A DNA stretch of 55,628 nt, taken from positions 1 through 55,628 of IMG/VR virus record IMGVR_UViG_3300049846_001678, one strand, 5' to 3'. This document shows, in pieces, positions 1 to 32,002 of the stretch (the first letter of the stretch is position 1; every line of letters begins with the position of its first letter). The DNA is from a virus (Duplodnaviria; Caudoviricetes). Both the position numbers and the translations under genes were made by a program. The notes beneath the pieces are model-generated. The model was not told the origin of the DNA and did not search any database. It saw nothing but the letters and a program-made list of their open reading frames with translations.

Positions 1-66
1 GGCATACTCGCCGAGCTTCAGCAGCCTATTTCCCGTCAATACTGCGAACAGAACATAAATGCGCAT
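1..66 (-). CDS. Partial small hypothetical protein (MRIYVLFAVLTGNRLLKLGEYA...), allele of 54972-55142
   Basis: Manual translation; runs off window edge; mostly synonymous or conservative differences from the right-end copy indicate it is coding. Confidence 0.7.
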   Translation of the reverse strand, partial: MRIYVLFAVLTGNRLLKLGEYA

Positions 67-3360: not shown

Positions 3361-3844
3361 CTTCCGCCCCCCATCCAATCTTCGTGGCTGGCGCTAATTC
3401 GCCCTTAACGGCTTCGTCGGCGGGGTTCATGGCAAATGCATCCTTTAACTTCGCCTTAAGAACTGCAATTTCATCTTCCGACAAACTCTGCTCCGATTTT
3501 TGCGTACCCTTAGACGAGATCCTGTTGATAAACTTAACTCGGTTGTAACGCTTCCCCTCGTACTCCTCTTGGTCGACGACGATCTGAACGTTGGCCGTCC
3601 CAAACCCCGGCATTTCGTCCAGCTCGTCACTTGTACCTGTAAAACCGCACGCGCGTAGAGCGGCGATGGTTCGCTCCGAGGCAGCGTCCGTTAAGTAGCC
3701 TCTCCAGGTAATCTGGCGGCCCTTGCACTCGCCCTCCTGAATTTGGAAAATGGCACGGATATAATCCGTTCCCTTCCCCTTTGTCTTTTCGAAATCATAA
3801 CTGATTGCTTTGGCGACGTATCGCCCGTCCGGTAACAACGACAT
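3344..3844 (-). CDS. DUF669-like single-stranded DNA-binding protein
   Basis: LPDGRY.AK, EEYEGKRYNRVK, acidic tail ending in F; follows Sak4-like ATPase. Confidence 0.75.
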   Translation of the reverse strand: MSLLPDGRYVAKAISYDFEKTKGKGTDYIRAIFQIQEGECKGRQITWRGYLTDAASERTIAALRACGFTGTSDELDEMPGFGTANVQIVVDQEEYEGKRYNRVKFINRISSKGTQKSEQSLSEDEIAVLKAKLKDAFAMNPADEAVKGELAPATKIGWGAEDELGF

Positions 3845-3846
3845 GT

Positions 3847-4764: not shown

Positions 4765-4774
4765 TTGACCCCCA

Positions 4775-5821
4775 CTATATTGTTTCTAACTCGGGGAAAA
4801 TCTTCCCCTTTTCTAATGTATCCAGACTGTCAATACAGCCGCCGTTGCAGACGTCAAGATATGGACAGAGCTGCCCGAATTTCCCACAACTATCCGGATT
4901 CCTAACTGCTTGCCGTGCCCCAACGGTCTTTTCAATTTCCACGCAGGTCGGGTATAGCACTTCGCCAACGAACTCGTCAAGTTGATCTTCGTTTCGTGTT
5001 GTCTTAACACGGTTAAAGAACTGCGCGCATGGTTCGTCTAGTTCCTCACTAACACGTTGAACGTATGAGGAAATGGTTTCATCGTGCAGTCTCACGTTCG
5101 CGTAAGGCATGCCATCTTTTTTATACTTGCGTTTGTCCATCGGGGTTGCCGTCTGACGATTCTTACTGGGCTTCTTTATGACATCGTAGAGAACGCCGGT
5201 AACGTTTAGTCCAAGGCTTATCGCAGCCAGCATATACATGGAAATCTGATAGTCGAAAGACAGCGTCGACCAATATTTACTGCCGAGGTCTACATCCCCT
5301 CTGGCTGTCTTGTGTTCAACGATATAAATCTGCTTACTGCGTGCGTGCATTACGATTGCGTCTATCTTTCCGGCCAGTCTCCAATGTGCGAGACTCGACG
5401 AAGAAAAAATCCCGTACGCTTCTGGGACCGGGACGCAGAATTCTTGCTCCACAGCCAGCGTCACAAGCCCATCCGATTCCCACGTCGAGGCATATCGAGA
5501 CAGAAGCATCCTCGCAATTTCTACGGTAGACTCAAGCTCGAAACCGTCGAGCCCCCACCGCTTAGCCTCTACGGGGATAATAGCGGAGGCATTTATTATA
5601 TTCCCATCAGTCTCGTTCTCTGTTTTTGTTTTAAAAAACTCCTCGAGAGCCTTATGCATCACCTTTCCGAATGTCAGTGCATGGGACTGCTCCTTCTCCA
5701 CATACCCCTGGACGTACCTGTGATAGTGGTGGCGTTCGCACCGCAAAAAGGTCTGTAAGCGTGACGCGGTAAGTACGTACCGGGGATCGACGTTTGCTCG
5801 CTTTTCGATACGTAATGCCAT
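4775..5821 (-). CDS. PD-(D/E)XK RecB/Cas4-like exonuclease
   Basis: TASRLQTFLRCER, GKIDAI, IVEHKT, Q.SMY, C-terminal C..F...CPY..VC. Confidence 0.88.
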   Translation of the reverse strand: MALRIEKRANVDPRYVLTASRLQTFLRCERHHYHRYVQGYVEKEQSHALTFGKVMHKALEEFFKTKTENETDGNIINASAIIPVEAKRWGLDGFELESTVEIARMLLSRYASTWESDGLVTLAVEQEFCVPVPEAYGIFSSSSLAHWRLAGKIDAIVMHARSKQIYIVEHKTARGDVDLGSKYWSTLSFDYQISMYMLAAISLGLNVTGVLYDVIKKPSKNRQTATPMDKRKYKKDGMPYANVRLHDETISSYVQRVSEELDEPCAQFFNRVKTTRNEDQLDEFVGEVLYPTCVEIEKTVGARQAVRNPDSCGKFGQLCPYLDVCNGGCIDSLDTLEKGKIFPELETI

Positions 5822-5823
5822 AC

Positions 5824-6024
5824 TCAGTACCCCTCGCTTGAAAAAATGTTGGTTGATATTTGCTCATTGTTTTCTCCTTGCTTCGAATTGAAGCGACTGA
5901 GATCTTCGATAGCGGCCTCGACGGCCCACATGGCCATCTCCTGCTCGGTCGAATGTTGTGGAAGTTTCTCGTACTGGTATATAGCGCGTTTAAGACTGAC
6001 TATTATGTTTCGTCGATCTCTCAT
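5824..6024 (-). CDS. Hypothetical protein
   Basis: AAGGGGAA RBS; first gene after leftward promoter. Confidence 0.65.
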   Translation of the reverse strand: MRDRRNIIVSLKRAIYQYEKLPQHSTEQEMAMWAVEAAIEDLSRFNSKQGENNEQISTNIFSSEGY

Positions 6025-6038
6025 CGTCTATGTTCCCC

Positions 6039-6074
6039 TTGATTTAAATATACACTTGTGTACAATAAAGTCAA
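6039..6074. promoter_or_regulatory. Overlapping divergent sigma70-type promoters with central inverted repeat
   Basis: + strand TTGATT-16-TACAAT (6039-6066); - strand TTGACT-16-TATATT (6074-6047); TACAC-TT-GTGTA at 6051-6062. Confidence 0.7.
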
Positions 6075-6090
6075 CAGGGGATACAAAAAA

Positions 6091-6804
6091 ATGTTTAACA
6101 AGGAAATCTATCACCGGCTTCGGTCATCGAACGTGCCACGAGGTTACTGCGAGGGGCTCGCCAAGCGCGCACATATGACATCCGATATTGTCTACGAACG
6201 ACTAACATCAAGAAAACATATCGCTCTTATTGTCGGCGACGTGCGCTGCGGTAAAACTTATCTCGCATGTAAGTACATTACGCACAATATGCCACCTAGC
6301 CACCCAACCCGTTTCGATGGCGAGTGGTATCCGTCGGAATGCCCGCGATTCGTCATGCCCATAGAACTCATGACAATGAACCTAGAAACCATCGGCGAAT
6401 TGAAAAACCCGTGCGGTCTAGTTATAGACGATCTCGATCGTGTATCAGAACATGTACAGTCGTTTATCTTCCCTTTGTGCCAATATCGTGCCATGGCTGG
6501 CACGCCAACACTAATAACAACGCGACTTTCAGTAAAAACATTCTCAATGCGGTACGGCGACAGGCTTATGGAGTTAATAGAAAAATATGGAGTCATCATC
6601 AATGCAAAAGAACACTACAGCGAGTTTCCAGAGAGTGCCTATGTGGGAGATGTGGGTGGCGGGGACGCCTGTTCCGCAGGGCAGCATGAGGGCGTTCATT
6701 GTAAACGGGAAGCCAGTGATAACTCACGGAAACCCGAAGTTGAAAGCCTGGCGAAAAGAATTGTCGGCGGAGTTTTCGAAGAAAGCCCCGTCGGTGCCCG
6801 GTGA
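6091..6804 (+). CDS. DnaC/IstB-like ATPase (helicase loader)
   Basis: NVPRGY, Walker A GDVRCGKTYLA, LVIDDL, PTLITT, YGDRL; start placed at ATG 6091 after AGGGG. Confidence 0.75.
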   Translation: MFNKEIYHRLRSSNVPRGYCEGLAKRAHMTSDIVYERLTSRKHIALIVGDVRCGKTYLACKYITHNMPPSHPTRFDGEWYPSECPRFVMPIELMTMNLETIGELKNPCGLVIDDLDRVSEHVQSFIFPLCQYRAMAGTPTLITTRLSVKTFSMRYGDRLMELIEKYGVIINAKEHYSEFPESAYVGDVGGGDACSAGQHEGVHCKREASDNSRKPEVESLAKRIVGGVFEESPVGAR

Positions 6805-7063
6805 TGGCGCGTATTCGCTGACACTATCGTTTTTTATGCTTCACCCGAAGTCTCATTTGAAGGCAAACGGAGAGGAAAAGGCATCTACTCCGTTCTTTCA
6901 CTGCGTGAAGCCAGACCTAGATAAGCTTATTCGCGCGGTTCTCGACGCACTTACAGACGCGAAAGTAATATCGGATGATGCGCATATCTGTACTATTCAT
7001 GCTTTAAAGGATTACGGCCAGAAGGAGGGTGTGTTCGTATGCTTAGACGAGCTTGCTGTCTAA
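6641..7063 (+). CDS. rusA: RusA-family Holliday junction resolvase
   Basis: GTPVPQGS, KPDLDKLIRAVLDALT, DDAHI; start placed at ATG 6641. Confidence 0.9.
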   Translation: MWEMWVAGTPVPQGSMRAFIVNGKPVITHGNPKLKAWRKELSAEFSKKAPSVPGDGAYSLTLSFFMLHPKSHLKANGEEKASTPFFHCVKPDLDKLIRAVLDALTDAKVISDDAHICTIHALKDYGQKEGVFVCLDELAV

Positions 7064-7284
7064 TTACGCTGTGTTGCACGTCGTGTGCAACTGTACCAAA
7101 ATTGGTACATTTAAATACCAAAGAGCTAAACGGGGGTAACGATAACGGCCCTGTTCGGACTACGTACCGGTGCTACCCTCTCCTACCAAACGGCCCCATC
7201 GAGGGACCGACGAAGAAATTCAGTATTGTTTGGGTTTGCGACTTAGAATCGATTACAGTTACTAGAAATAAATGGGGGATTTAA
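7039..7284 (+). CDS. Putative small lipoprotein
   Basis: MLRR plus hydrophobic stretch plus TSC-AT lipobox-like; GGAGG upstream. Confidence 0.5.
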   Translation: MLRRACCLITLCCTSCATVPKLVHLNTKELNGGNDNGPVRTTYRCYPLLPNGPIEGPTKKFSIVWVCDLESITVTRNKWGI

Positions 7285-7514
7285 TGAATACAAAAACAGT
7301 AACGCTACCAAGGCCGCTAGTTCGTTTCCTAGCAGACGACGATGGGGATATCACTGTGTACCCTCCTGTGCATAATCACGTACCAAGTAATTATCATAAG
7401 AGGCAGCCGCCTAAGGATAATCAGGGAAGAACAAATTGTTTTTGGTGTGACATGCCTACGAAGAAACGTGGTTTCTGGAAAGAGTACGACGTGTGCCCAA
7501 TATGCGACAAATAA
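7284..7514 (+). CDS. Zinc-ribbon hypothetical protein
   Basis: CFWC...CPIC; GGGGG RBS. Confidence 0.6.
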   Translation: MNTKTVTLPRPLVRFLADDDGDITVYPPVHNHVPSNYHKRQPPKDNQGRTNCFWCDMPTKKRGFWKEYDVCPICDK

Positions 7515-7714
7515 ATGAGAAAGAAACTTGTCCAGTATGTGAGGCGAACCTACAGCCGGTCGGCGCATACAGGGAATGTAAGAAGTGTGATCGACTTTGG
7601 GGAACTCGTCCGCCACATTGTCCGCAGTGCGGCTCGATGCTTATTACGATTAAGGAACACACTTTCTGCACCGGCTGTAAAAGAATATGTGAAGGCTGCT
7701 GCGAAGGAGGATAA
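7493..7714 (+). CDS. Multi-CxxC zinc-ribbon protein
   Basis: Five CxxC pairs in 73 aa. Confidence 0.6.
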
Positions 7715-7715
7715 A

Positions 7716-8147
7716 ATGACAACAATCAAATTCCAAAAGATTCACCCCGATGCCGTCATCCCTAAGTACGAAACAGCCTGGGCTTCCGGGATGGACCTTC
7801 GTTCGACGATGCAGGTGGACCTGTGGAACTATGACGCAGTGTTGGTACCGACCGGACTTAAAGTGGCTATACCGGAGGGCTTCGAGGGCCAGATTCGTCC
7901 GCGCTCCGGATTGGCACTTAAGCATCGTGTAACTGTCTTGAACGCTCCAGGAACAATCGATGCCGACTACAGGGGCGAGGTAAAGGTATTACTGATAAAC
8001 CTAGGCCGGAATCCATTCCGAATCAACATAGGAGATCGCATTGCGCAGCTAGTAATTGCCCCTGTGGAATGCTGTGCCTGCGTTGAATGTGAAGGGTTGG
8101 ATGCTACAGGCCGGGGCGAAGGTGGGTTTGGTAGTACAGGGGTCTAG
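7716..8147 (+). CDS. dut: Trimeric dUTPase
   Basis: [38 protein letters not shown]; AGGAGG RBS before ATG 7716. Confidence 0.97.
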
Positions 8148-8509
8148 TATCGACCGTATCGCTCACAGCGTTCACAGACGTCGCATTCCTCGAGCTCCAA
8201 CTCATCTTCATCCTCGTCACAATCCTCATCTTCGTCTGCGTCGCCGTCTTCGCAGTCCTCGTAGCAGCTGTCGTCCTCAGAGCAGTCGTCCTCGTCACAA
8301 AACGAATCAAGCTTTGACATAAACTCCTTCTGAAAAGTAATACTGGAATTTACATCGTCCATAAGTACTTCCAACAACGCAACAGCCCCAGCGATCTCTT
8401 TATGGGCCAAATTGCCGTCTTCGTCGTAACCGATACAACCGTCAGCGCACTCAATCTTATCTCTAACAGAGTCCAGCAATGCCAGTTTTTGCTCTAATTT
8501 CATCATCAT
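8144..8509 (-). CDS. Highly acidic, Cys-interspersed hypothetical protein
   Basis: D/E-rich C-terminal half; GGGAG RBS; own promoter candidate. Confidence 0.75.
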
Positions 8510-8547
8510 AATCTCCCTTTGTTTGTTACTATACGAGCCGAGCTATA

Positions 8548-8576
8548 AGCCTACATGTATAACAACGAACGTGCAA
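8548..8576 (-). promoter_or_regulatory. Putative sigma70 promoter overlapped by TACATGTA palindrome
   Basis: TTGCAC-17-TAGGCT on minus strand upstream of the acidic ORF. Confidence 0.5.
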
Positions 8577-8640
8577 TATCTTACCCAAAAACGGTATTAA
8601 GTCGGTAATATGAGCAACTTATTGCACTTTCTCGTACCAC

Positions 8641-8874
8641 TTAGTCGCAATTCTGATACTTTTTCCCACCTAAAAGGATCTTCGCCATTGTCTGTCGATC
8701 AAATACAGACTGATTGTTGTCACACATTTCTTGAACGAAATAAACGCAAGCCAACGCGGCAACGCTGTGTGGAATGTGTTGCATTTCCTTGGCGATGATC
8801 TTCTCCGCCAACTTGTGTGCCCATACGTCCATATTTTCAACAATCTGTGTATTTTCGGTTAATTTCGTGTCCAT
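8641..8874 (-). CDS. Hypothetical protein
   Basis: GGGGAGG RBS; abuts upstream ORF. Confidence 0.7.
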   Translation of the reverse strand: MDTKLTENTQIVENMDVWAHKLAEKIIAKEMQHIPHSVAALACVYFVQEMCDNNQSVFDRQTMAKILLGGKKYQNCD

Positions 8875-9309
8875 CTATTCCTCCCCTTCGTTGGTTAGTT
8901 TAGAAACAATAACAGGGCACTCTTGGGTAACCCTGACAAGACTGTACTCACCTGTCTTTCGTGTCTGTGAATCATCTGTCCAAGTATCGAAATCTGGGCA
9001 ATGAACAGACCCCTCAATGTCCATTGTGCATTTTGTACAAGTCCCTACCTCATCCGATTCCCTATCCAACACAACCTCGCATTCGGTGCAGCGATAGATG
9101 CCTTGGTCTTCCTCATGGCATTTCTTACACCAAAAGGCATCGTAATTAGCATGCCTACCGCAGGACGTACAGACAGCTTCGTCTAAGTAGTCCTCTTCTG
9201 TAGCCAACTTCCAGGCATCATAGGTAGCGAACCTAGGCTGCCTATAAGGGCTACGAACAGGGTTGTCATCGTACTCTTTGTAATCGTCGTATTCCGGTTT
9301 ATAGCTCAT
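8875..9309 (-). CDS. Cys-rich zinc-finger hypothetical protein
   Basis: YDAWKLA motif, four CxxC pairs, G8 RBS. Confidence 0.7.
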   Translation of the reverse strand: MSYKPEYDDYKEYDDNPVRSPYRQPRFATYDAWKLATEEDYLDEAVCTSCGRHANYDAFWCKKCHEEDQGIYRCTECEVVLDRESDEVGTCTKCTMDIEGSVHCPDFDTWTDDSQTRKTGEYSLVRVTQECPVIVSKLTNEGEE

Positions 9310-9369
9310 TTTAATTCCCCCCCCATAATTGGCAGAATAGGTTCCAAGCCTTTCCTGCCGGTTCGTTCG

Positions 9370-9588
9370 CTATTCGTGTTTGCTATTCGCAATTCGCGAA
9401 TTCTGAATGCCCCTCATCGCAGCAAACTCAGCGTCCATCTGAGCCTCTAACGCTTCCCAACGCTTTACCTGCTCACGACAGGCCTGCCTTAGCTCGGCGC
9501 CGATGTGTAGCGCGTCGGCTAATGCACCTTGCGTACGAAGCTCACTATGCCACAGTTCCAGTCTTTCTTGATTCGCTTTCTTGCCCAT
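9370..9588 (-). CDS. Hypothetical protein
   Basis: GGGGGACAAA-ATG at 9588; promoter TTGCAA-16-TATTCT upstream on minus strand. Confidence 0.65.
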   Translation of the reverse strand: MGKKANQERLELWHSELRTQGALADALHIGAELRQACREQVKRWEALEAQMDAEFAAMRGIQNSRIANSKHE

Positions 9589-9707
9589 TTTGTCCCCCTT
9601 TTGAAGATTTATCCTGATCACATTTTTAGAATAGCATTTCGTATCACATTTGCAATGTATGAATTTCCCTACAATGCTGCATACATGTAGCACCTATCAA
9701 ATAATGC

Positions 9708-9737
9708 TTGACACGCGTTTTACTCGCCCTTTATAAC
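9708..9737 (+). promoter_or_regulatory. sigma70-type promoter
   Basis: TTGACA-18-TATAAC; -10 lies within perfect 16-bp palindrome TTATAACTAGTTATAA (9731-9746). Confidence 0.65.
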
Positions 9738-9768
9738 TAGTTATAAGCCAGCCCAATAAACCAATCTA

Positions 9769-9869
9769 ACTTGCCTTTCCGCAGGTGGGGTGAAGGGTGG
9801 GTGGGTAGGATTCCAAGCTAGGCATCCGGCTCCCCTACAAACAAACACCCCACCGGCGGTCAGGCAAGT
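9769..9869 (+). ncRNA. Candidate structured RNA or DNA element (long interrupted hairpin containing a G-quadruplex motif)
   Basis: ACTTGCCT/AGGCAAGT, CCGC/GCGG, GGTGGGGTG/CACCCCACC and GTAGG/CCTAC pairings; lies just downstream of promoter. Confidence 0.45.
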
Positions 9870-9952
9870 AATGTACTAGTTATAACTAAGTAATAACTAA
9901 GTTATAAGGCAAGTATAGATCTTTTTATACAAAAGTAAGAAAAGGGGGCATT

Positions 9953-10204
9953 ATGAAAACAGTACTTGAATTTGATTGCACAGATGTTCAGGAGGAGAGG
10001 CACGCACAGCTCGCCCTAGGTTCGAAGTCAATCGCCCTGTCTATATACGAGTTTAAACTAGAACTTATCAAATGCATGAATGACGGTTTCTGGATGCATA
10101 GAGAGGCAACAGGTGCTGAGAGAGACTTCGCCGAAGAGGTACTTAAGTACTTAAATGAGTGCCTAGATGAGACAGGTTGTAGAAATGCTATAGATGAGTG
10201 CTAG
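9953..10204 (+). CDS. Hypothetical protein
   Basis: GGGGGCA RBS; MKTVLEFD start. Confidence 0.75.
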   Translation: MKTVLEFDCTDVQEERHAQLALGSKSIALSIYEFKLELIKCMNDGFWMHREATGAERDFAEEVLKYLNECLDETGCRNAIDEC

Positions 10205-11347
10205 TACACCATTTTGGTGATAGTAACAAATTGGTCATGTAGAAGTGCAGAAAAGTAGTTAAAAGTAGTGGGCCACTTTTCACCACATTGTCCTACACCA
10301 AGTAATTCCTCGTAACTATTAAGAAATAAGCGTCTATTAGTGCATACAGGGTGCAAGTATCTTACCTTTCCTGACATGTAGTCATGAATCGTTTCGATGA
10401 CTTACCTCACTTATTGTAAAGGGGCTTACAAACTGGACGTAGGACTAGGGGGCTGATGTAGGTGCTTAGGCGCACATACATATCAGTAGTGGCGGGCTTG
10501 CAAGATCCGTACCTGGCATGGTTCTTGACTGGCACGATTATTGATTTGCCTTATAAGGGCAGGCACATGCTAGGCATAGCTAGCATAACACTTGATGTAG
10601 GCAAATTGACTGTAGCGCGTTTAATGCGTTCTAGTGTGGTGGGGAAATACCCTCACTAGGGAAATTGTAGAATTCCACACCTACATGTCAGGTCATGGGG
10701 GATAATAATCAAAGAACGTACTTCCCCCTTCCCCACTATGACTAAGGGTCTACATATATGGATAAGTACGGGTATCTATTAGCCTATTAGTGTCCCCTAT
10801 ATACAATACAGAATAGCATAGTGAATGATTAAATGCAATTGATATAAATCAATAAGTGTAATAAATACATGTAGTTAGATTACCTACATGAATGATATAT
10901 GAATGAATAAACGCATAGAAGGGGGCATGTGGGTTGGTGTAGGGAAATGTGAGAAGATCACACAGGTAGGCTTACATTTGGTGGTAACTACCCTACTTCA
11001 CAAAATTTTCCCATAAATAGACTTGTATACATCTATATACCATGCTAGCATCTAGTATGCATTTACTAGACAACATCATTATTTTAAAAGAGCGTATAAT
11101 AACATCAGGCGGCACACCGGAAGTGCTAGGCCTACCTACCCCTATCGCAGAGCTAGAACTCCTTATACCGCATTTTAAGATTATTGTAATCGACCCCAGA
11201 CTAGAGTCTGACCTTATCTCGATTATGAGTATACGAGACTTTTGTAAATGCATATCGGCCAAGAGAACGGCCAATCAAGTGAGCAGCAAGTAAAAAATAT
11301 CCTACCTCTGACTACACATAACTACATGAAATAATTAAATATTCCTA
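10205..11347. other. AT-rich 1.1 kb non-coding control region (origin or terminus candidate)
   Basis: No convincing ORF; clustered CTACAT/ATGTAG motifs; near transcription divergence point. Confidence 0.5.
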
Positions 11348-11375
11348 TTGACACGCCCCTTAGATGTGATAATAT
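11348..11375 (+). promoter_or_regulatory. sigma70-type early promoter
   Basis: TTGACA-16-TAATAT before GGAGGGG RBS. Confidence 0.65.
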
Positions 11376-11398
11376 TTATTTATACCAGGAGGGGACAC

Positions 11399-11896
11399 AT
11401 GACTTGGACACTGGACAAAGAGGAAAGTAAAAAAGGTGAACGAAAATGGGTCGTAGAGACACCTTTACACGATGTTGTTGTTCGCTGCCAAATTCCCACC
11501 GAAGAGAGGGCCGATGAATGGGGTTTTGAAGGGGAGGAGCGGGCTACCTATCTCGCCAAGAAGGCGGAGTGGACTGTGTCGGAGTACGGGGGGTATTGCT
11601 CCACACTCGCTGAGGGTACCCGTAAGGACGTTAGAGCGTACCTCGCTTCGATGCAAGAGGCGGGGGAGCGTTTTAAACGTGCGGTTATGTTAGCCGATAA
11701 GCACTTAACCGCGTGTGTAGCAGTATTTGAAAAGAACGGTATAGACCTACCGGACTGGGTAGGCAAACTAAACATGTCGGTGCGGGATTGTTTTGAGTAT
11801 AAACACACTAGCGAAGATTACTACCCGGAGGTTTTCGATACTGTCGCTAAGGAGTTTGAGATAGAGCCAGAAGACCTGAGTGAAAAATATCGGTAA
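11399..11896 (+). CDS. Hypothetical early protein
   Basis: AGGAGGGGACAC-ATG at 11399. Confidence 0.8.
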   Translation: MTWTLDKEESKKGERKWVVETPLHDVVVRCQIPTEERADEWGFEGEERATYLAKKAEWTVSEYGGYCSTLAEGTRKDVRAYLASMQEAGERFKRAVMLADKHLTACVAVFEKNGIDLPDWVGKLNMSVRDCFEYKHTSEDYYPEVFDTVAKEFEIEPEDLSEKYR

Positions 11897-13630: not shown

Positions 13631-13659
13631 TTGACAGGGGTTGTATACCGCTGTATAAC
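13631..13659 (+). promoter_or_regulatory. sigma70-type promoter
   Basis: TTGACA-17-TATAAC. Confidence 0.7.
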
Positions 13660-13680
13660 ATAATTATCGGGGGTTGTAAT

Positions 13681-13875
13681 ATGCGATCTGAAATTATCTA
13701 CAGAGCCTACGACGAGGACGGAAACTACACCGAAGTCCAAACCCATCCGGATAACGAACGGGGTTATGTTCTTGTTACAGAGCACTATGCTTCGGGGGCT
13801 AAGCATAGCGAGCTTTCGATGACTAAAGAACATGCCCAATGGTTGAGTGACGTGTTGAGTAAGTTATCGTGTTAG
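13681..13875 (+). CDS. Hypothetical protein
   Basis: GGGGGTTGT RBS downstream of promoter. Confidence 0.7.
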   Translation: MRSEIIYRAYDEDGNYTEVQTHPDNERGYVLVTEHYASGAKHSELSMTKEHAQWLSDVLSKLSC

Positions 13876-20722: not shown

Positions 20723-20991
20723 ACTGGCAGCCGCTAGTGGAATGGCTGGGGGTGGTCGGCAGCGCAATGCTGGCTGTTTGCGCACTACCGCTGGTCGTCG
20801 ATGTTGTCCGTAACCGCACGGCTCGAGCAATCCCCTGGCTATTTCTGCTCTCCTGGGGCGTTGGCGAGATTTACGTCGGCATATATGGGTTGTTTTATTG
20901 GCTAAAGCCCGTCCTTCTTAATGTAACGTTTAACCTGTTGGCTGTTTTTATCATTCTTTACTATAAGGTCGGCGATGTCGGTCGCAAATAA
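20719..20991 (+). CDS. SemiSWEET/PQ-loop-like three-TM protein
   Basis: LGVVGSAMLAVCALP, three TM segments, IYG...PVLLN...LYYK. Confidence 0.7.
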   Translation: MNWQPLVEWLGVVGSAMLAVCALPLVVDVVRNRTARAIPWLFLLSWGVGEIYVGIYGLFYWLKPVLLNVTFNLLAVFIILYYKVGDVGRK

Positions 20992-21541
20992 GCAACTTCC
21001 CGCTTTGTTAGACCTGAAAGAGAAAAAGACTCTTACGGAGTTGAAGGTCGACCAGCGCGTGGAAGAGATTATGCTCATGGTAACGCATGGTATCTCGACG
21101 ACCAGGATTGTTAAGGATATCCGGGAAAAGTATAACGTTTCTCGGAACACGGCGGATAGCTACTTGGCTAAAGCCATGATGGAACTGGCGGCGCATACCC
21201 GTACCTATAGTGTCGATACCTGGGTTGCTAAAAGGCGTTCACAGCTAGAGGCCATTCTCGAGGCGTGCATGATTGAGAAAGACTACAAGACGGCCCTTGC
21301 AGCTATCGGTAAGTTGGTCGAGTTAGACGTTCCGCCGAATGCTCAGCAGCATTCCGTTACTGTGACGACACGTCACGCCGCCCTATCCCCAGAAGAGAAG
21401 TCTGAGCGTCTTAGGATGCTGTTAAATGAGCGACAGAAGTTTATTGACGCTACCTATACGGTAGAGGACGAAGAAAAACACAAGGAAGTCTACGAACAGG
21501 CAAAAGAAGAGTTTGGGTACACAGATGAAGGGGTTTCTTGA
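20975..21541 (+). CDS. Putative terminase small subunit (HTH protein)
   Basis: HTH GISTTRIV...VSRNTADSYL, DYKTALAAIGKL helices, LSPEE tail. Confidence 0.5.
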   Translation: MSVANKQLPALLDLKEKKTLTELKVDQRVEEIMLMVTHGISTTRIVKDIREKYNVSRNTADSYLAKAMMELAAHTRTYSVDTWVAKRRSQLEAILEACMIEKDYKTALAAIGKLVELDVPPNAQQHSVTVTTRHAALSPEEKSERLRMLLNERQKFIDATYTVEDEEKHKEVYEQAKEEFGYTDEGVS

Positions 21542-21566
21542 CTTGTACTACATCGGCATACATAAT
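21538..21566 (+). promoter_or_regulatory. sigma70-type promoter driving hairpin RNA
   Basis: TTGACT-17-CATAAT; predicted start site coincides with base of hairpin. Confidence 0.7.
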
Positions 21567-21570
21567 ATCT

Positions 21571-21654
21571 GTGAGGGCCCGGTTTCATCGCTGCGTCGTC
21601 TGTGTCCCCCCACAACCCCCATACGCAACGCGATTACCGGAGCCCTCACTTTTT
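21571..21654 (+). ncRNA. Candidate small RNA or attenuator: 23-bp interrupted stem, C-rich loop, T5 tail
   Basis: GTGAGGGC/GCCCTCAC, CCGGT/ACCGG, ATCGC/GCGAT, TGCGT/ACGCA; loop TGTGTCCCCCCACAACCCCC. Confidence 0.65.
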
Positions 21655-21670
21655 ATCACATGGGGGACAA

Positions 21671-21961
21671 ATGAAACGGGTAACTAAGAAAAAGGATGTT
21701 TGGAAGGTCGGCGATAACCTCGTCTTAACGATGACCGGTGGAATGCCTGTTGCTGTTAAAGACCAGACGCTGGCTGTGATCGTCGACGGGCAGAAGAAAT
21801 TTCCTAGGCTTTTTGAGGAAATGATTTGCCGCGTTGGCTACAGATCGCTGTCTGAGGACTTCGTCTGCGTCGATTGGCCCAACAATTCGGAATTACCGAA
21901 GGGTTACTATAGTCGATATCGGTTTGTAAAATTGAATCTGGATGGGTTAGACTTGCATTAA
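21671..21961 (+). CDS. Hypothetical protein
   Basis: GGGGGACAA-ATG at 21671. Confidence 0.7.
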   Translation: MKRVTKKKDVWKVGDNLVLTMTGGMPVAVKDQTLAVIVDGQKKFPRLFEEMICRVGYRSLSEDFVCVDWPNNSELPKGYYSRYRFVKLNLDGLDLH

Positions 21962-22230
21962 TGACCGACGCAGACTTGGCGAATGTGAAAATACTCGAAT
22001 TTAAACCGAACGCTCGATATGCCGTAGTTTTAGACAAGACCGAAATGATTCTTTTCATGACGTTAGACGAAACTGTGCGTTTCGTACACAAGTTGGGGAT
22101 TGAGCCGCATATGATTGATTCCCACGTATTTAAGATCAATCTGTCGCACACAACGGACAATGAGCGGTCGTATATTGATGGCTATGTAACGGCCATGAAG
22201 GAAAACAATGCAAATACCAAAAGACCTTAA
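21961..22230 (+). CDS. Hypothetical protein
   Basis: TAATG coupling to upstream ORF. Confidence 0.65.
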   Translation: MTDADLANVKILEFKPNARYAVVLDKTEMILFMTLDETVRFVHKLGIEPHMIDSHVFKINLSHTTDNERSYIDGYVTAMKENNANTKRP

Positions 22231-22729
22231 AAAACAGCTAGATGCACAGGGAGTTCGGGTTGTGGAAAAAGCCGGGTGGTTTTGGAACACACTGCACTGG
22301 TGTGTCATTATTTTTACGTTCGGCGCCAATAGACGATTCCGGGACGGGTTTGTTACAACACTGGGGGCGACGATTGCGGTGCCACCAGGTAGAAAATGGA
22401 CAGAGGACCTACGAACAACAATAGAGCACGAAATGGTGCATGTTGGGCAGTTCCGAAAGATGGGTTTAGGCAGTGCCTACCTGGGCATACTGCCTGGGTT
22501 CTTTTGGTATATCCTTTTTCCTTTGCCAATTGGGTTCTGCTGGGGGCGTTGGCAAATGGAACGTTGGGCCTATCTTGTGAATATCCGCGCCTGTAAAACT
22601 AAGACTCATCGGGAATACGCGATAGCGCACGTTGTGCGGAACATGACCACATCCGCCTACGGATGGCCACTACCCCCGTTCAAGTGGGCAAAAAGATACA
22701 TAGAAAACTGGTTGCGTTTGCATATATAA
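22208..22729 (+). CDS. Membrane-associated HExxH metallopeptidase-like protein (DUF4157-like)
   Basis: VTTLGATI, HEMVHVGQ, ME..AY, hydrophobic segments. Confidence 0.65.
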   Translation: MQIPKDLKKQLDAQGVRVVEKAGWFWNTLHWCVIIFTFGANRRFRDGFVTTLGATIAVPPGRKWTEDLRTTIEHEMVHVGQFRKMGLGSAYLGILPGFFWYILFPLPIGFCWGRWQMERWAYLVNIRACKTKTHREYAIAHVVRNMTTSAYGWPLPPFKWAKRYIENWLRLHI

Positions 22730-22958: not shown

Positions 22959-23295
22959 CCTGACAGACAGACAAAAATTAAATATGATCAAGAGTATACT
23001 GCAACCGTCTCTGCTTGAAATGATCAAGCAGTTTGGTCCGCTGCCGGTGTTCTTTGGGTTGTTAGAGTGTGTTTCGGAATTGGCTGTTGCAGGCGGGATG
23101 AAAAAGTCATATTTGACGCGGCAGGTGGGCAAGGTTTATGTGGCCATGCGCGCACACGCGTCGCAAGTACCAATAAGGAAGGACGAGGAAGTATGCCAAA
23201 CAAACGAAGTATCGTCGGAGCCCTCTGCGCAATTACATTTGCCCTCGGAGGGTGCGCCCATCAACCCAAGTACGACGGAGACACCGGATTCATAA
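22948..23295 (+). CDS. Hypothetical protein
   Basis: GGGAGG RBS, TTG start. Confidence 0.55.
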   Translation: MINNLTDRQKLNMIKSILQPSLLEMIKQFGPLPVFFGLLECVSELAVAGGMKKSYLTRQVGKVYVAMRAHASQVPIRKDEEVCQTNEVSSEPSAQLHLPSEGAPINPSTTETPDS

Positions 23296-23792
23296 TTAAG
23301 AAAGAAAAGGAACTGACGTTCGATCTGCGCCTTCTACCGATCGTCGTTTATATCGATCCGGAGTTGCCGGTCGATTGTTATGCGGCGTTAGTAGAGGCGA
23401 TTACCGAGATGAACATAATCGTCGGGCGAACCGTGTTTCTTATGCCCAGGGTTCCGGAATCTCCGGATACCTTCGATGGGTTTAACGGAGCTGGTGCAGT
23501 GTTTGTAACACAGACCCGAGGCGACCAGTCTCGTGGCCTGACGCGGCATTTTATTGATGCCACAGCGATGACAATTGTTAATGCAATTGTTTGGCTACCG
23601 GCGACCGGCGTATATCGTGCAGATCTCCAGTTTGCGCTGCACGAGCTGGGGCATGTCCTTGGGTTAGAGCATGATGAAATTCGAGAGAGCCTGATGTATA
23701 AGGAATTGTTGGGACCGGGAAAAACAGCGGTTCCACAAGACCTGACGGTAAAGGACCGTGCCCTGTTGCGTGATACATACGGTCGTAAGTAG
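23193..23792 (+). CDS. Lipoprotein matrixin (M10-like metzincin) protease
   Basis: Lipobox ALGGC; HELGHVLGLEH zinc motif; Met-turn SLMY; GAGG RBS. Confidence 0.85.
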   Translation: MPNKRSIVGALCAITFALGGCAHQPKYDGDTGFIIKKEKELTFDLRLLPIVVYIDPELPVDCYAALVEAITEMNIIVGRTVFLMPRVPESPDTFDGFNGAGAVFVTQTRGDQSRGLTRHFIDATAMTIVNAIVWLPATGVYRADLQFALHELGHVLGLEHDEIRESLMYKELLGPGKTAVPQDLTVKDRALLRDTYGRK

Positions 23793-23809: not shown

Positions 23810-26161
23810 ATGAAAGAGTTTCTTTTATTTCCAGGTCGTGGTGTCTTAGGACGTTCCGATATTGGCCTTCCGGTACGCCTAGTATTTGGTCCGGGGGCGA
23901 CGGACAAAGATATCTTCATTCTCAAGTCCCACATACAGAACATTCATAAAAGAAAGTCGTTTGTCGAGCGTGCGCCATCGTCTACGGCGCGAAGTGTCAG
24001 CATTATTGTCGGAGAGTCGGCAATATTACAAGAACTTGGGCGTAAACTAAAGATAGACAACACGCGACGGGGTCTTGTTTGGCAAGAGACGGTGGCTGGG
24101 AGAGCGCCGGCATTCTGGGTGCACGATCAGGAAAAAGCTCGGTCAAATCGCTTCTTTGGCGAAGAATTTACATCCGATATCGCTTACGCCGTGAAGTACA
24201 AGGAGGATGCGCCGCATTATGCGAACCGGTTTTATACGGTCGAGACGGCTGAAGACGCTGCCTTTGTCGACCAACGACTGCGTTCGTCGCCTTGGTGCGC
24301 GTACGACTGCGAAACAGCTGGCGTAGTTTACTCCGATTACTTTGAAATTCATTGTTTGGCGGTTTCCACGGCACACGGGGAGACCTATGTATGGAAAAAG
24401 GATGCTTTGCAGAAACCAGAAATAACGGCAACACTGCTTTCTTGGTTTTGCGATCCTACGTGTAAGAAGGTCGGACACAATATCAAATTTGATATGCACG
24501 CGGTCCAGGGGTTCTTTGGGGTACCAGTTCGGGGATTTCACAGCGACACGCGACTTCGTCGTAAGCTGCTACATGCCGATGCGGAGTCGTCTTTGGAGAT
24601 ATGCAGCGACCTAGTCGGTATGGGCGGGTATAAACAGGAGTTTGAGGTATCTCTAGCGGAGGCAAAGCAGGCCATTAAACAGGCGCGTTCTAAGGTCGGA
24701 CAGGAGATGATGAAACTGGTTGATTTGTCCGACCATACCGCCTTACAGCAGGCTGTTAGTAACCCGAAAGCAAAGGCGGAGGTCTACGCGTACGCCCTCG
24801 TCGACGACAAAACGACAGCTTTGTACTGCGCACGAGACGCCTATACGACGGCTCTTCTTGAACGCAAGTTATCATCAGATCTGGTCGAGCAACCACATCT
24901 TATGAATGTTTGGGAGAATGTGGTGTCGAAGGCCGCGCCGGCCATCCAACAAATAGAGGCGGGCGGCGTTATGATGGATACCGCAGCCATGGAGGAGTTG
25001 CGGGTCTATCTTAACCAACAACGGGAAGGATTGCGTTCAACGCTTCGCGCGCGCGGGCTCGAGGAACCAGACTCGTCGAAGCAAGTTTCCGAATACCTGT
25101 TTGACGAATTGGAGCTGAAACCGACGAAAATTAGCGAAAAAACGAACCGCCCAAGTACGGGAGCGAGCGTTCTTAAAGCCCTTCAGGGGCAGTCTGAAGA
25201 CGCGGCAATGCTGCTAGAGTATCGACGCCTTTCTAAATTGGCCGATGCCTACGGCGAAAGCTTGCCTAAACATATCCGCAAAGATGGGCGCATTCATCCG
25301 GAATTTGTCGTTGACGGGACACGAACCGGGCGGATGTCTTGTCGGAATCCGAACCTCCAGCAAGTTCCCAAGTCCGAGAGCCAGGAAGGGAAGTTGTTAA
25401 AAAACTGCTTCGTCGCCCCGCCCGGTAAGCTTCTGATTGAACTCGACTATAGCCAGATGGAAATGCGTGTTGCGGCCATGCTTAGCGGCGACCAGGTTAT
25501 GGCGGATATGTTCGCTACGGGCGAGGATTTTCACCTTTCAACGGCCAAACTAATCGCTAAACCAATGTGGGGAATGAATCCGGAGGATATAGTTAAGTCA
25601 TCACCCCAGCGAAATGCAGCAAAGCAGTTTAATTTCGGACTCTTATACGGTATGACGGTCAACGGTCTGGCACAGCGCATCAAATGTGAACGTTCGGAAG
25701 CGCAAAAGTTACGGACGGTCATATTCGGCGAATGGCGTGCGTTGGCCGCGTGGCTGGACGAACAGAAGCAGCAGGCAGTAGAAACCGGCCGTATTTTCAC
25801 TCAGTGGAACGGGAAAGCGGCACGTATTCGGTACGTTCCTGGGATTCTTAGTTCAGACGGGCTAACCGCCTTTAAGGCGCGTAATGCGGCCATAAACACA
25901 CCAGTTCAAGGGACAGCTAGTGACTACTGTTTGGCGAGTGTGGCTCGGATCGTTGACGGTTTACGAGATAATCGGTTACCGGCACAGGTTGTGCTAACCG
26001 TACACGACAGTATCATTATCGAAGCCGAAGAAACCGCAGTTTTAGATGTTGCAAAATTTGCAAAGACTGCGATGTTAGAGTGGCCCTCTGGAATTGTACA
26101 ATTTCAGGTCGATGTTAAGGCGGGGCCGCGATGGGGTTCGATGGAAGAACTCCATGTTTGA
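23810..26161 (+). CDS. polA: Family A DNA polymerase with 3'-5' exonuclease and degenerate N-terminal domain
   Basis: Exo DCET, GHNIKFD, YCARD; TGRMSCRNPNLQQ, DYSQMEMR, RNAAKQFNFGLLYG, VHDS. Confidence 0.97.
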   Translation: MKEFLLFPGRGVLGRSDIGLPVRLVFGPGATDKDIFILKSHIQNIHKRKSFVERAPSSTARSVSIIVGESAILQELGRKLKIDNTRRGLVWQETVAGRAPAFWVHDQEKARSNRFFGEEFTSDIAYAVKYKEDAPHYANRFYTVETAEDAAFVDQRLRSSPWCAYDCETAGVVYSDYFEIHCLAVSTAHGETYVWKKDALQKPEITATLLSWFCDPTCKKVGHNIKFDMHAVQGFFGVPVRGFHSDTRLRRKLLHADAESSLEICSDLVGMGGYKQEFEVSLAEAKQAIKQARSKVGQEMMKLVDLSDHTALQQAVSNPKAKAEVYAYALVDDKTTALYCARDAYTTALLERKLSSDLVEQPHLMNVWENVVSKAAPAIQQIEAGGVMMDTAAMEELRVYLNQQREGLRSTLRARGLEEPDSSKQVSEYLFDELELKPTKISEKTNRPSTGASVLKALQGQSEDAAMLLEYRRLSKLADAYGESLPKHIRKDGRIHPEFVVDGTRTGRMSCRNPNLQQVPKSESQEGKLLKNCFVAPPGKLLIELDYSQMEMRVAAMLSGDQVMADMFATGEDFHLSTAKLIAKPMWGMNPEDIVKSSPQRNAAKQFNFGLLYGMTVNGLAQRIKCERSEAQKLRTVIFGEWRALAAWLDEQKQQAVETGRIFTQWNGKAARIRYVPGILSSDGLTAFKARNAAINTPVQGTASDYCLASVARIVDGLRDNRLPAQVVLTVHDSIIIEAEETAVLDVAKFAKTAMLEWPSGIVQFQVDVKAGPRWGSMEELHV

Positions 26162-26186
26162 CAGATGTAAGCGTTAGTCCTACACT
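26158..26186 (+). promoter_or_regulatory. sigma70-type promoter for terminase/portal
   Basis: TTGACA-17-TACACT. Confidence 0.7.
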
Positions 26187-26201
26187 AATATCACGGCACA
26201 G

Positions 26202-27635
26202 ATGATCGCGGAAACACCCTTCGACGAGGAGATTCGTCTGCTATTGGAGCAGACATCTGGTACTAGTAAGGTTACCGGACTGGCGTCTTACATTCTTAGA
26301 ATTTCCCCGCAGCTGTCCGCCCCAGCACACTTAAAGCCTCTCATAACGTCCCTAGAGGCCAGCCTCGAATCGAGTAAAAGAATCTGCGTCTCTATGCCAC
26401 CACGGCACGGAAAGACTACGACGATTGCGCACGCCTTTCCCTTTTTGTTGTCCAAAGACCCTAAAAAAACCCACTGTTACGTGACATATTCGGGAGATCT
26501 TTCGAAGTCAAAATCGAGGCATATTCGACGTTTGGCGTTGGAGTCCGGTATAAAGTTAGCTAAGGGTTCAAAGTCACTAACCGAATGGCGTACCGAGGCC
26601 GGCGGTGGATTAATCGCAACCTCAATCGGCGGTTCTTTAACGGGTCAAGGGGTGACCGGATTGATGGTTGTCGACGACCCGTTTAAGGACCGGGTCGAGG
26701 CCGAATCAAAAGCGCACCGGAACAATGTGTGGGAATGGTTCACGGATGTTGCCTATACCCGTTTGGAGCCGGGTTCGTCATGCGTCGTGGTGCAAACACG
26801 ATGGCACGAAGAGGATTTAATCGGTCGTTTGATGACAGATTTCCCCGGAGAATGGGAATACATCAACCTGCCGGCCGTCAGCGACGAGGGACAGGCACTG
26901 TGGCCCGAGGCGTATCCCTTAGAAGTTCTTAACAAAACCCGCAGTGTTCTTGGTGACTATTCTTTTGAGGCCCTCTATCAGGGGCGTCCTCGTCCAAGAG
27001 GATCAAACATCTTCAAGGAACCCGCAACGTTTGTTCGTCCAGATATGCCCCAGATGGCGGAATTTATGGTCGACAAGGACTGTATTATGGCGATCGACCC
27101 GGCCGCCACTGCACGTACGAGCGCGGATAACAGCGTCGCGTTAGTTCTAGCGAAAGAGCGTAAACTCGAATTACCGAAGGCATGGGTTTTAGAGGTAATA
27201 CGCGGGCAAATGACAGTACCCGCGTTCTGCGAGGTCGTTGCTCGCCGTTGGGATGCGTGGAAGCAATACCGATGCAAAATCGCCATCGAAGCTGTCGGCG
27301 GATTTAAAGCGGTTCCCGACATATTGGCGAAGATTAGACCAGGCGAGCTGGTCCTGTCGGAGTCTGGGAAAATCGGAAACCTTTTGCCGATTTATCCAAC
27401 GAAAGACAAATACTTACGGGCACAGGCCGTTGCCGCCGCTTGGAACGAGGGGCGAATTCTTGTCCCCAACAATACGGACTGGTGTACAACATTCGTTGAC
27501 GAGGTAATGGGCTTTACAGGCCTGGGAGATCGAAAGGACGACCAGGTTGATGCACTAGCGCATGCGTGGAACACCCTTAGCTCTATTAAACGAGTACGTC
27601 GCGGGTATAGAATATCCCAAGACGCATTTGGTTAG
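26202..27635 (+). CDS. Terminase large subunit
   Basis: MPPRHGKT, VVDDPFKD, QTRWHEEDL, IDPA, DDQVDAL. Confidence 0.96.
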   Translation: MIAETPFDEEIRLLLEQTSGTSKVTGLASYILRISPQLSAPAHLKPLITSLEASLESSKRICVSMPPRHGKTTTIAHAFPFLLSKDPKKTHCYVTYSGDLSKSKSRHIRRLALESGIKLAKGSKSLTEWRTEAGGGLIATSIGGSLTGQGVTGLMVVDDPFKDRVEAESKAHRNNVWEWFTDVAYTRLEPGSSCVVVQTRWHEEDLIGRLMTDFPGEWEYINLPAVSDEGQALWPEAYPLEVLNKTRSVLGDYSFEALYQGRPRPRGSNIFKEPATFVRPDMPQMAEFMVDKDCIMAIDPAATARTSADNSVALVLAKERKLELPKAWVLEVIRGQMTVPAFCEVVARRWDAWKQYRCKIAIEAVGGFKAVPDILAKIRPGELVLSESGKIGNLLPIYPTKDKYLRAQAVAAAWNEGRILVPNNTDWCTTFVDEVMGFTGLGDRKDDQVDALAHAWNTLSSIKRVRRGYRISQDAFG

Positions 27636-31932: not shown

Positions 31933-32002
31933 GCCCGACGGCGCATTTTGGACTGTGATGGGTTTTCCTGTGCCCCCAGTGCGGTCGGTGCGTTCGTCGG
32001 GC
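31933..32002 (+). ncRNA. Candidate structured RNA: long interrupted hairpin with CUGUGCCCCCA apex
   Basis: GCCCGACG/CGTCGGGC, GCGCA/TGCGT, GACTGT/GCGGTC; intergenic. Confidence 0.55.

What the first reader, a model, noticed from the sequence alone, without database searches (positions are those of the whole stretch)
21538..21670. Promoter-driven ~84-nt hairpin RNA whose loop is antisense to ribosome-binding sites of phage non-structural genes
Seen: TTGACT-17-CATAAT places the start site at the base of a 23-bp interrupted stem (21571-21649) followed by T5. The loop carries two C-rich seeds. UGUCCCCC matches GGGGGACA at the RBS of DNA polymerase (23810), ORF 21671 and ORF 9588(-); UGUGUCCCC matches GGGGACACA at ORF 11399. 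ACAACCCCC (21612-21620) matches GGGGGTTGT (13669-13677) at the RBS of ORF 13681. Known: C-rich loop sRNAs such as S. aureus RNAIII and RsaE repress translation by pairing with SD sequences. Inference: either a trans-acting phage sRNA silencing several early/replication genes, or a cis attenuator/pseudoknot in which the loop pairs with the adjacent RBS at 21661-21669.
Basis: partly seen in the sequence, partly recalled or inferred. Interest (0 to 1): 0.75.

Follow-up and report, generated by a model that had tools for sequence, protein, structure and literature searches.

The report
Promoter–hairpin–terminator cassette with C-rich loop
An orphan freshwater phage carries a compact promoter, long hairpin and U-run that most likely stop transcription and release a short RNA, and whether that RNA's C-rich tip silences the phage's early genes is untested.

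Summary
The sequence observation holds. TTGACT-17-CATAAT (21538-21566), a 79-nt all-Watson-Crick hairpin (21571-21649, -38.6 kcal/mol, z -3.3), T5 (21650-21654) and GGGGGACA just before ATG 21671 fill the 130-nt spacer. All five quoted RBS matches exist.

The apex is the most C-rich 27-nt stretch of the + strand, and its two C-runs are predicted unpaired. GGGGG-type Shine-Dalgarno sites mark non-structural genes: 17 of 45 against 1 of 33 structural genes.

The complementarity is mostly C-run against G-run. With the C-runs fixed and the other loop letters shuffled, only the count of matches of 8 nt or more is marginally high (P 0.04).

The phage is an orphan. Both flanking proteins have no relatives, the polymerase has none above 31% identity, and no Rfam family or RNA run was found. 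Neither conservation nor expression could be tested.

Best reading: an intrinsic terminator preceded by its own promoter, giving a terminated RNA of about 82 nt. A second long hairpin plus T-run lies at 31933-32002. Anti-SD sRNA action is feasible but unproven.

The parts
21538..21566 (+). Sigma-70-type promoter-like site: TTGACT, 17-nt spacer, CATAAT. The -35 hexamer contains the TGA stop (21539-21541) of ORF 20975-21541.
   Evidence: 10 of 12 matches. The same stop-inside-TTGAC layout occurs at 26158, in front of the large terminase gene.
21571..21649 (+). 79-nt interrupted hairpin, lower stem 8+5+5+5 bp, all Watson-Crick.
   Evidence: Hairpin alone -37.4 kcal/mol. z -3.29 for the 106-nt stretch.
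21601..21623 (+). C-rich apex: UGUG/CACA mini-helix closing the loop UCCCCC (C6 at 21606-21611), then ACAA and C5 (21616-21620) in an internal loop.
   Evidence: the most C-rich 27-nt windows of the + strand, 16 of 27 C; unpaired probability 0.85 and 0.86.
21650..21654 (+). T5 run directly after the stem (U-tract of the putative intrinsic terminator).
21662..21673 (+). GGGGGACA ribosome-binding site and ATG (21671) of a 96-aa orphan ORF. It is 8 nt complementary to 21603-21610.
   Evidence: net -8.9 kcal/mol.
20975..21541 (+). Upstream gene: 188-aa orphan all-helical protein with one confident helix-turn-helix-like part (about residues 20-75).
   Evidence: No family assigned.

Best explanation
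The 130-nt spacer is a compact transcription-punctuation cassette. A GC-rich 79-nt hairpin followed by U5 acts as an intrinsic (Rho-independent) terminator for host RNA polymerase coming from the upstream non-structural genes.

A sigma-70-type promoter sits immediately in front of it, with the start site about 21572-21574 at the stem base. Initiation there would therefore yield mainly a terminated RNA of about 82 nt. Read-through from either source would feed the cluster from ORF 21671 to the DNA polymerase.

Shown: the sequence elements, their predicted stability and their position. Inferred: promoter activity, termination, and the existence of the short RNA.

The RNA's apex exposes two C-runs that can pair with the GGGGG-type ribosome-binding sites typical of this phage's non-structural genes. 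I treat that pairing as a possible secondary function, not as established.
For: - Hairpin stability: z -3.29; 2 of 200 shuffles fold as well; 29 Watson-Crick pairs.
- T5 abuts the stem.
- All neighbouring genes lie on the + strand.
- A second long unbranched hairpin followed by CTTTTAT lies at 31933-32002, behind the head-gene block, with coding sequence rather than a promoter in front of it. Long hairpin plus T-run therefore recurs as a terminator-like style in this phage.
- No phage RNA polymerase was recognised among the ORFs I scanned. TTGAC-type promoters sit in other intergenic spots: 9709, 11348, 13638, 26158, 30124, and 6074 on the minus strand.
- At 26158 the stop TGA is embedded in TTGAC exactly as at 21538.
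- The spacer holds nothing but promoter, hairpin, T5 and RBS.
Against: - No transcript data exist: no RNA run was listed.
- Promoter-like sites as a class are not enriched over shuffles (14 found against 14.8 expected; 16 against 18.7).
- The U-tract is only 5 long, and a 79-nt stem-loop is larger than a textbook terminator.
- The minus strand folds slightly better (-46.1 kcal/mol, z -3.77), so folding alone does not fix the strand.
- A promoter placed upstream of a terminator is wasteful unless the short RNA or a regulated read-through matters. That argues for more than punctuation.
- The apex is the only one of 65 long terminator-like hairpins, in the window plus 94 related loci, with unpaired C4+ runs. 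The C-richness is therefore not a generic terminator feature.
Confidence: 0.5

Rival explanations
1. Trans-acting anti-Shine-Dalgarno sRNA. The ~82-nt RNA accumulates and its exposed C6/C5 runs pair with GGGGG-type ribosome-binding sites of non-structural genes. Translation of the early and replication genes falls, while structural genes with AGGAG-type sites escape.
For: - C-runs are predicted unpaired.
- The apex is the most C-rich stretch of the + strand and is unique among 65 long hairpin+T-run elements.
- GGGGG lies within 18 nt of the start in 17 of 45 non-structural genes against 1 of 33 structural genes (p 2.5e-4).
- Net pairing of -8 kcal/mol or better: 13 of 48 against 1 of 33 (p 0.006), and 3 of 150 random interior sites. 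At -10 or better: 6 of 48, 0 of 33 and 0 of 150.
- Matches of 8-9 nt lie at the RBS of 9588(-), 11399, 13681, 21671 and 23810.
- The mechanism has precedent in UCCC-motif sRNAs (PMC2790875, abstract read).
Against: - With the C-runs fixed, shuffling the other loop letters gives as much total complementarity (P 0.53). Only the count of matches of 8 nt or more is marginally high (7 against 3.3, P 0.04).
- There is no conservation, covariation or expression evidence.
- A constitutive-looking promoter would make the repressor together with its targets.
- The G5 sites cluster on promoter-proximal genes and may simply be copies of a promoter-RBS cassette (30-nt repeat 9926 / 22725).
- Gene starts come from my own crude caller.
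Confidence: 0.2
2. Cis-acting leader. Either the terminator is a regulated attenuator read through only when a phage factor acts (lambda PR'-tR' logic), or in read-through mRNA the loop masks the adjacent RBS of ORF 21671 (P1 c4 / P4 CI logic).
For: - A promoter directly upstream of a terminator directly upstream of an RBS is the classical attenuator layout.
- A DNA-binding-type gene ends inside the -35 box, which is the position of Q in lambdoid phages (recalled).
- The 8-nt loop-RBS match has a net energy of -8.9 kcal/mol.
- StxS shows that such short terminated PR' RNAs exist and can be functional (PMC7547250, abstract read).
Against: - ORF 20975 matches no Q or other antiterminator family in Pfam or PHROGs, and its model is poor (pLDDT 58; no fold match).
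- No -10-like pause element is evident in the first 20 transcribed bases (by eye).
- The downstream cluster starts with small orphan ORFs and the DNA polymerase, not a classical late operon.
- The RBS lies after the terminator, so pairing cannot affect termination.
- The pseudoknot needs a 12-nt linker to span the whole stem.
Confidence: 0.15
3. RNA processing or stability element. A double-stranded stem of about 23 bp serves as an RNase III site, as between T7 early genes, or as a 5'/3' stabiliser of the flanking mRNAs. The T5 and the promoter-like site are incidental.
For: - The stem length of about two helical turns with internal loops, in an intergenic position just before an RBS, resembles T7 R sites (recalled).
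- Another promoter-proximal giant hairpin sits in the early-right leader at 9769-9869 without a T-run.
Against: - A T5 abutting the stem and a well-spaced promoter ending 5 nt before it are each improbable by chance.
- No tool here tests RNase III recognition.
Confidence: 0.08
4. The stretch is coding. ORF 21525-21674 (49 aa) ends in ATGA, overlapping the start of ORF 21671.
For: - The frame is open and has the ATGA overlap.
- Codon log-likelihood is 0.08 per codon, above off-frame sequence (-0.40 +/- 0.20).
Against: - The score is below the coding mean (0.22 +/- 0.09).
- The RBS is weak.
- The frame runs through the strongest + strand terminator-like hairpin of the non-structural region.
- No search was done with this peptide.
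Confidence: 0.04

Closest known systems
Intrinsic (Rho-independent) terminators
   Same: A GC-rich stem is directly followed by a U-run, downstream of a stop codon and between co-directional genes.
   Different: The stem-loop is unusually long (79 nt) with a 23-nt C-rich apex. A promoter sits immediately upstream of it instead of downstream.
Lambdoid PR'-tR' short transcript (lambda '6S' RNA; StxS of Stx phages, PMC7547250, abstract read)
   Same: A constitutive-type promoter is followed at once by an intrinsic terminator, so a short RNA is made. In StxS that by-product acts as a base-pairing sRNA. A putative DNA-binding gene lies directly upstream, where Q lies (position recalled).
   Different: No Q-family protein was recognised. 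There is no Rfam match. The downstream genes are small orphans plus the DNA polymerase. The phage is a myovirus-type orphan with no recognised lysogeny genes among the ORFs scanned.
UCCC / C-rich-motif sRNAs that mask Shine-Dalgarno sites (RsaE/RoxS class, RNAIII; PMC2790875, abstract read)
   Same: Unpaired C-rich motifs (UCCCCCC, ACCCCC) sit in a loop and an internal loop of a short terminated RNA. They are complementary to G-rich ribosome-binding sites.
   Different: There is no sequence or structure homology: no Rfam family matches at E up to 10. The element is encoded by a phage and the predicted targets are the phage's own genes. The host is unknown.
P1 c4 / P4 CI immunity RNAs (recalled; a 'C4 antisense RNA' family is in Rfam to my recollection)
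   Same: A stem-loop RNA of about 77-79 nt is encoded upstream of, and in the same transcription unit as, an RBS complementary to its loop.
   Different: There is no covariance-model match. This element has its own terminator, whereas c4/CI are processed out of a longer transcript. No antirepressor-type target was identified.

Membership tests
Intrinsic terminator | Stable GC-rich hairpin immediately followed by a U-run on the transcribed strand | tested here: met
   -37.4 kcal/mol hairpin, then TTTTTATC.
Intrinsic terminator | Transcripts actually end at the U-run | not testable with these tools
   No RNA run was listed. Only DNA contigs were laid.
C-rich (UCCC-motif) anti-SD sRNA class | Discrete small transcript with its own promoter and terminator | tested here: inconclusive
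   A consensus promoter-like site (10 of 12) and a terminator-like hairpin are predicted. There are no expression data.
C-rich (UCCC-motif) anti-SD sRNA class | C-rich motif unpaired in the folded RNA | tested here: met
   predicted unpaired probability 0.85 (C6) and 0.86 (C5). This is a prediction only.
C-rich (UCCC-motif) anti-SD sRNA class | Specific pairing with the ribosome-binding sites of targets | tested here: inconclusive
   Energetically feasible and enriched at non-structural starts. Hardly better than shuffled flanks around the same C-runs.
C-rich (UCCC-motif) anti-SD sRNA class | Homology to a described family (RsaE/RoxS and others) | tested here: not met
   No Rfam 15 family matches at gathering score, and none on the hairpin at E up to 10.
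P1 c4 / P4 CI antisense RNA | Match to the family's covariance model | tested here: not met
   That the family is in Rfam is recalled.
P1 c4 / P4 CI antisense RNA | Loop complementary to an RBS downstream in the same operon | tested here: met
   21603-21610 is complementary to 21662-21669, 8 nt.
Lambdoid PR'-tR' late control | Promoter followed at once by an intrinsic terminator | tested here: met
   (predicted elements).
Lambdoid PR'-tR' late control | Q-family antiterminator gene | tested here: not met
   ORF 20975 has no Q or antiterminator family in Pfam or PHROGs. None was seen in the other 40 ORFs scanned against PHROGs.
Lambdoid PR'-tR' late control | Sigma-dependent -10-like pause element in the initial transcribed region | tested here: inconclusive
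   None is evident by eye in 21573-21595. No formal scan was run.

The most novel reading that the evidence does not exclude
The phage sorts its genes into two translational classes by the type of ribosome-binding site: GGGGG for non-structural genes and AGGAG for structural genes. It also encodes one small RNA whose twin exposed C-runs titrate the GGGGG class. That would be a single-RNA, genome-wide early-to-late translational switch.
Probability: 0.15. Interest if true: 0.75.

Novelty: new member of a known kind. Interest (0 to 1): 0.35.

Why it matters
If the short RNA exists and pairs with the G5 ribosome-binding sites, one ~80-nt RNA would shut off a whole temporal class of phage genes. 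In T4 that job is done by a protein, RegA (recalled). The StxS precedent shows that terminated promoter-proximal phage RNAs can become regulators.

If it is only a terminator, it is ordinary. The split between GGGGG and AGGAG ribosome-binding sites by gene class stands on its own and is directly testable.

Tried and rejected
Searches for relatives that carry the region all failed.
- blastn of 20900-22300 against 50,697 phage records: no match.
- The flanking proteins in viral contigs: none.
- The flanking proteins among 5.8 billion proteins: only themselves.
- Exact stem and loop patterns in viral contigs: 0 hits each.
- DNA-polymerase relatives: 14 viral and 80 metagenome loci, all at 52% identity or less over a short segment and 31% or less over the domain.
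- A single-sequence covariance model found only itself in 941 kb.
- Five more loci were found with the exonuclease (50% identity at best) and with ORF 22208 (45%). They share no synteny around the hairpin.
- The best covariance-model hit there is a short 41-nt hairpin in L096 (16.8 bits, rough E 0.024). It resembles only the lower stem and I take it as chance.

Host inference: the major head and portal proteins found nothing in GTDB genomes.

RNA evidence: no RNA holder was listed. The three DNA-contig runs that were laid gave no listed variant inside 21571-21670. The pieces shown do not cover the hairpin in the two non-source runs.

ORF 20975: the AlphaFold model is poor (pLDDT 58). Foldseek against the PDB gave nothing at E 0.001 or better. 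The Atlas gave only unnamed viral clusters, plus named leads under 0.9.

Readings rejected:
- tRNA or tmRNA.
- Any Rfam family.
- A minus-strand RNA. It folds a little better, but no promoter-like site on that strand is placed to transcribe it, it has no T-run after the stem, and all neighbouring genes are on the + strand.

Supplementary files of the two papers were not consulted.

Full report
Context. The window is a whole IMG/VR virus record of 55,628 bp, rated 100% complete.
- Leftward genes (70-9690) encode a DnaB-like helicase, a primase, an SSB, a Sak4-like annealing protein and an exonuclease.
- Rightward genes run from 9953 to about 52.4 kb. First come many small orphan ORFs, a phosphoesterase, an exonuclease and a family-A DNA polymerase at 23810-26161.
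- Then come the large terminase, portal, major head protein, tail sheath and baseplate.
- I.2-52.4 kb 'structural/late' and the rest 'non-structural/early'. That label rests on gene content, not on timing data.

The observation. Reading 21300-21900 shows, in order:
- the TGA stop of ORF 20975-21541 inside TTGACT (21538-21543);
- a 17-nt spacer, then CATAAT (21561-21566);
- four bases, then a hairpin at 21571-21649;
- TTTTT (21650-21654), then ATCACAT, then GGGGGACA (21662-21669), one A, and ATG 21671.

The hairpin has 29 predicted pairs, all Watson-Crick. The 106-nt stretch folds at -38.6 kcal/mol with z -3.29, and 2 of 200 shuffles fold as well. No tRNA and no Rfam family matches, whether at gathering score on the window or at E up to 10 on 21450-21750.

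Is it a terminator?
- My scan for hairpins closing within 2 nt of a T-run found two outstanding + strand elements. One is this hairpin (-37.4 kcal/mol). The other is 31933-32002 (-37.8 kcal/mol, then CTTTTAT), in the gap behind the head-gene block, with coding sequence directly upstream.
- A canonical short terminator closes the structural block at 52485-52504.
- Long hairpin plus T-run is therefore a recurring style of punctuation in this phage, and that is the simplest reading here.

Is the promoter real?
- As a class, consensus matches are no more frequent than in shuffles.
- Sites matching 10 of 12 on the + strand are about 7 in 30 kb, so one ending 5 nt before the stem is unlikely by chance. 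My estimate is about 0.3%.
- TTGAC-type sites occupy other intergenic spots: 9709, 11348, 13638, 26158, 30124, and 6074 on the minus strand.
- At 26158 the polymerase's TGA stop sits inside TTGACA, just as at 21538.
- I therefore think the promoter is probably functional. That is inference.

The C-rich apex.
- Windows starting at 21605/21606 are the most C-rich 27-mers of the + strand, with 16 C.
- Two of the strand's 27 runs of five or more C lie 5 nt apart here.
- In the predicted ensemble of the 84-nt RNA the C6 and C5 runs are unpaired with probability 0.85 and 0.86. Their opening costs are 1.3 and 0.7 kcal/mol.
- I found 65 long unbranched hairpins followed by a T-run in the window plus 94 loci of distant relatives (944 kb, both strands). 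Only this one has unpaired C4+ runs.

The ribosome-binding sites.
- My crude gene caller listed 96 ORFs. It scores GGGGG and GGAGG equally when it chooses a start.
- I kept 78 and dropped 18 short, overlapping or opposite-strand ones that I judged spurious.
- GGGGG lies within 18 nt of the start in 17 of 45 non-structural genes and 1 of 33 structural genes (Fisher p 2.5e-4). GGGG gives 27 of 45 against 3 of 33.
- GGAG, GAGG or AGGA gives 20 of 45 against 21 of 33, which is not significant.
- Many G5 sites are followed by (A/C)A and sit 4-5 nt from the ATG of promoter-proximal genes. Two such promoter-RBS stretches are 77% identical over 30 nt (9926 and 22725).
- A class difference in Shine-Dalgarno type between early and late genes has been described for T4. 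I recall this; only the title string was found, in three reference lists.

Does the loop match the sites specifically? For this test I used 48 non-structural starts, adding 13363, 13681 and 14288.
- The loop has contiguous matches of 8 nt or more to 7 of the 48, and of 7 nt or more to 12.
- Shuffling the whole loop destroys this (P 0.0015 and 0.004).
- Keeping the two C-runs and shuffling the other letters gives a mean of 3.3 (P 0.04) and 9.1 (P 0.18), with the same summed match length (P 0.53).
- The signal is therefore essentially C-runs meeting G-runs. The UGUGU and ACAA flanks add little.

An accessibility-corrected estimate (duplex energy plus the opening cost of both partners) gives the following:

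| Net energy | Non-structural starts | Structural starts | Random interior sites |
|---|---|---|---|
| -8 kcal/mol or better | 13 of 48 | 1 of 33 (p 0.006) | 3 of 150 |
| -10 kcal/mol or better | 6 of 48 | 0 of 33 | 0 of 150 |

The best predicted partners are the starts at 11908, 11399, 17560, 9588(-), 9309(-) and 19442. The polymerase start (-9.7) and 21671 (-8.9) follow.

No comparative or expression evidence.
- Both flanking proteins are singletons among 5.8 billion sequences.
- No phage record, viral contig or metagenome contig carries the region.
- The nearest partial relatives share only the exonuclease, or head genes plus an ORF 22208 homologue, without synteny.
- Only DNA runs hold the phage.
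- Covariation, which is the decisive computational test, is therefore unavailable.

Weighing.
- The hairpin and U-run are best explained as an intrinsic terminator.
- The promoter in front makes a short terminated RNA likely.
- Placing a promoter before a terminator is the layout of lambdoid PR'-tR'. There the by-product RNA StxS has become a base-pairing regulator (PMC7547250, abstract read).
- The exposed C-runs recall the UCCC-motif sRNAs that block initiation complexes (PMC2790875, abstract read).
- These are resemblances of mechanism. Homology-based membership was tested and not met.
- My odds: about 0.5 for punctuation with a short RNA of no proven function; 0.2 for a trans anti-SD sRNA; 0.15 for a cis attenuator or RBS mask; 0.08 for a processing or stability element; 0.04 for a small ORF.

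Verdict. The element is real and non-random, and its architecture supports a short terminated RNA. The regulatory story is attractive but rests on C-runs against G-runs in a single orphan genome. Interest is moderate.

Noticed in passing
window 9700-9950: The most stable structure of the genome is a ~101-nt hairpin at 9769-9869 (-60.2 kcal/mol, z -5.3). It lies in the leader between a TTGACA promoter (9709) and the first rightward gene (9953), and no T-run follows it. It is flanked by a perfect 14-nt palindrome, TATAACTAGTTATA, over the -10 region and by related TTATAAC/GTTATAA repeats at 9872-9909, which look like operators. No Rfam match.
   Followed up: partly
whole window (gene starts): Ribosome-binding sites split by gene class. 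GGGGG, often followed by (A/C)A and 4-5 nt from the ATG, occurs in 17 of 45 non-structural genes and 1 of 33 structural genes. The structural genes use AGGAG, GGAG or GAGG.
   Followed up: yes
window 31933-32002: A second long (70-nt, -37.8 kcal/mol) hairpin followed by CTTTTAT lies in the gap after the head-gene block. It is probably a terminator or stabiliser of the head-gene mRNA.
   Followed up: partly
window 26158-26204: TTGACA-17-TACACT overlaps the polymerase's TGA stop. Only about 10 nt without a Shine-Dalgarno site remain before ATG 26202 of the large terminase, so the mRNA may be nearly leaderless, or the true start may be TTG 26244.
   Followed up: no
window 4-303 and 55080-55379: The 300-nt direct repeat at the two ends of the record is only 90% identical. 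That is odd for a terminal redundancy and may be an assembly of two variants.
   Followed up: no
window 8551-11331 and 30132: ACATGTAG-type palindromes cluster around the divergent early control region (9 of 23 matches lie within 2.8 kb). One sits in the spacer of the promoter-like site before the major head gene. The overall count is not above shuffles (23 against 15.9).
   Followed up: partly
window 10659-11399: A 740-nt stretch has no convincing ORF on the + strand. It is AT-rich with several palindromes and a G5...C5 hairpin at 10697-10728. It could be an origin or hold further non-coding RNAs.
   Followed up: no
window 23193-23792 and 22208-22729: The ORF starting at ATG 23193 begins with a lipoprotein-like signal (…ALGGC, by eye) and carries a matrixin-type zinc site (Pfam PF00413, E 4e-7). 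ORF 22208 is a membrane protein with HExxH. Its 44%-identical relative in L100 sits between the scaffold and major head genes.
   Followed up: partly
window 13638-13683: The promoter TTGACA-17-TATAAC has GGGGTTGT in its spacer and GGGGGTTGT at the RBS of ORF 13681. Both are complementary to the second loop motif of the hairpin.
   Followed up: no
L096 6753-6793: A short GC-rich hairpin (GUAGGGGCCGG…CCGGCCCCUAC) in a non-syntenic intergenic gap of an exonuclease-sharing contig resembles the lower stem of the window's hairpin (16.8 bits, rough E 0.024). Probably chance.
   Followed up: partly
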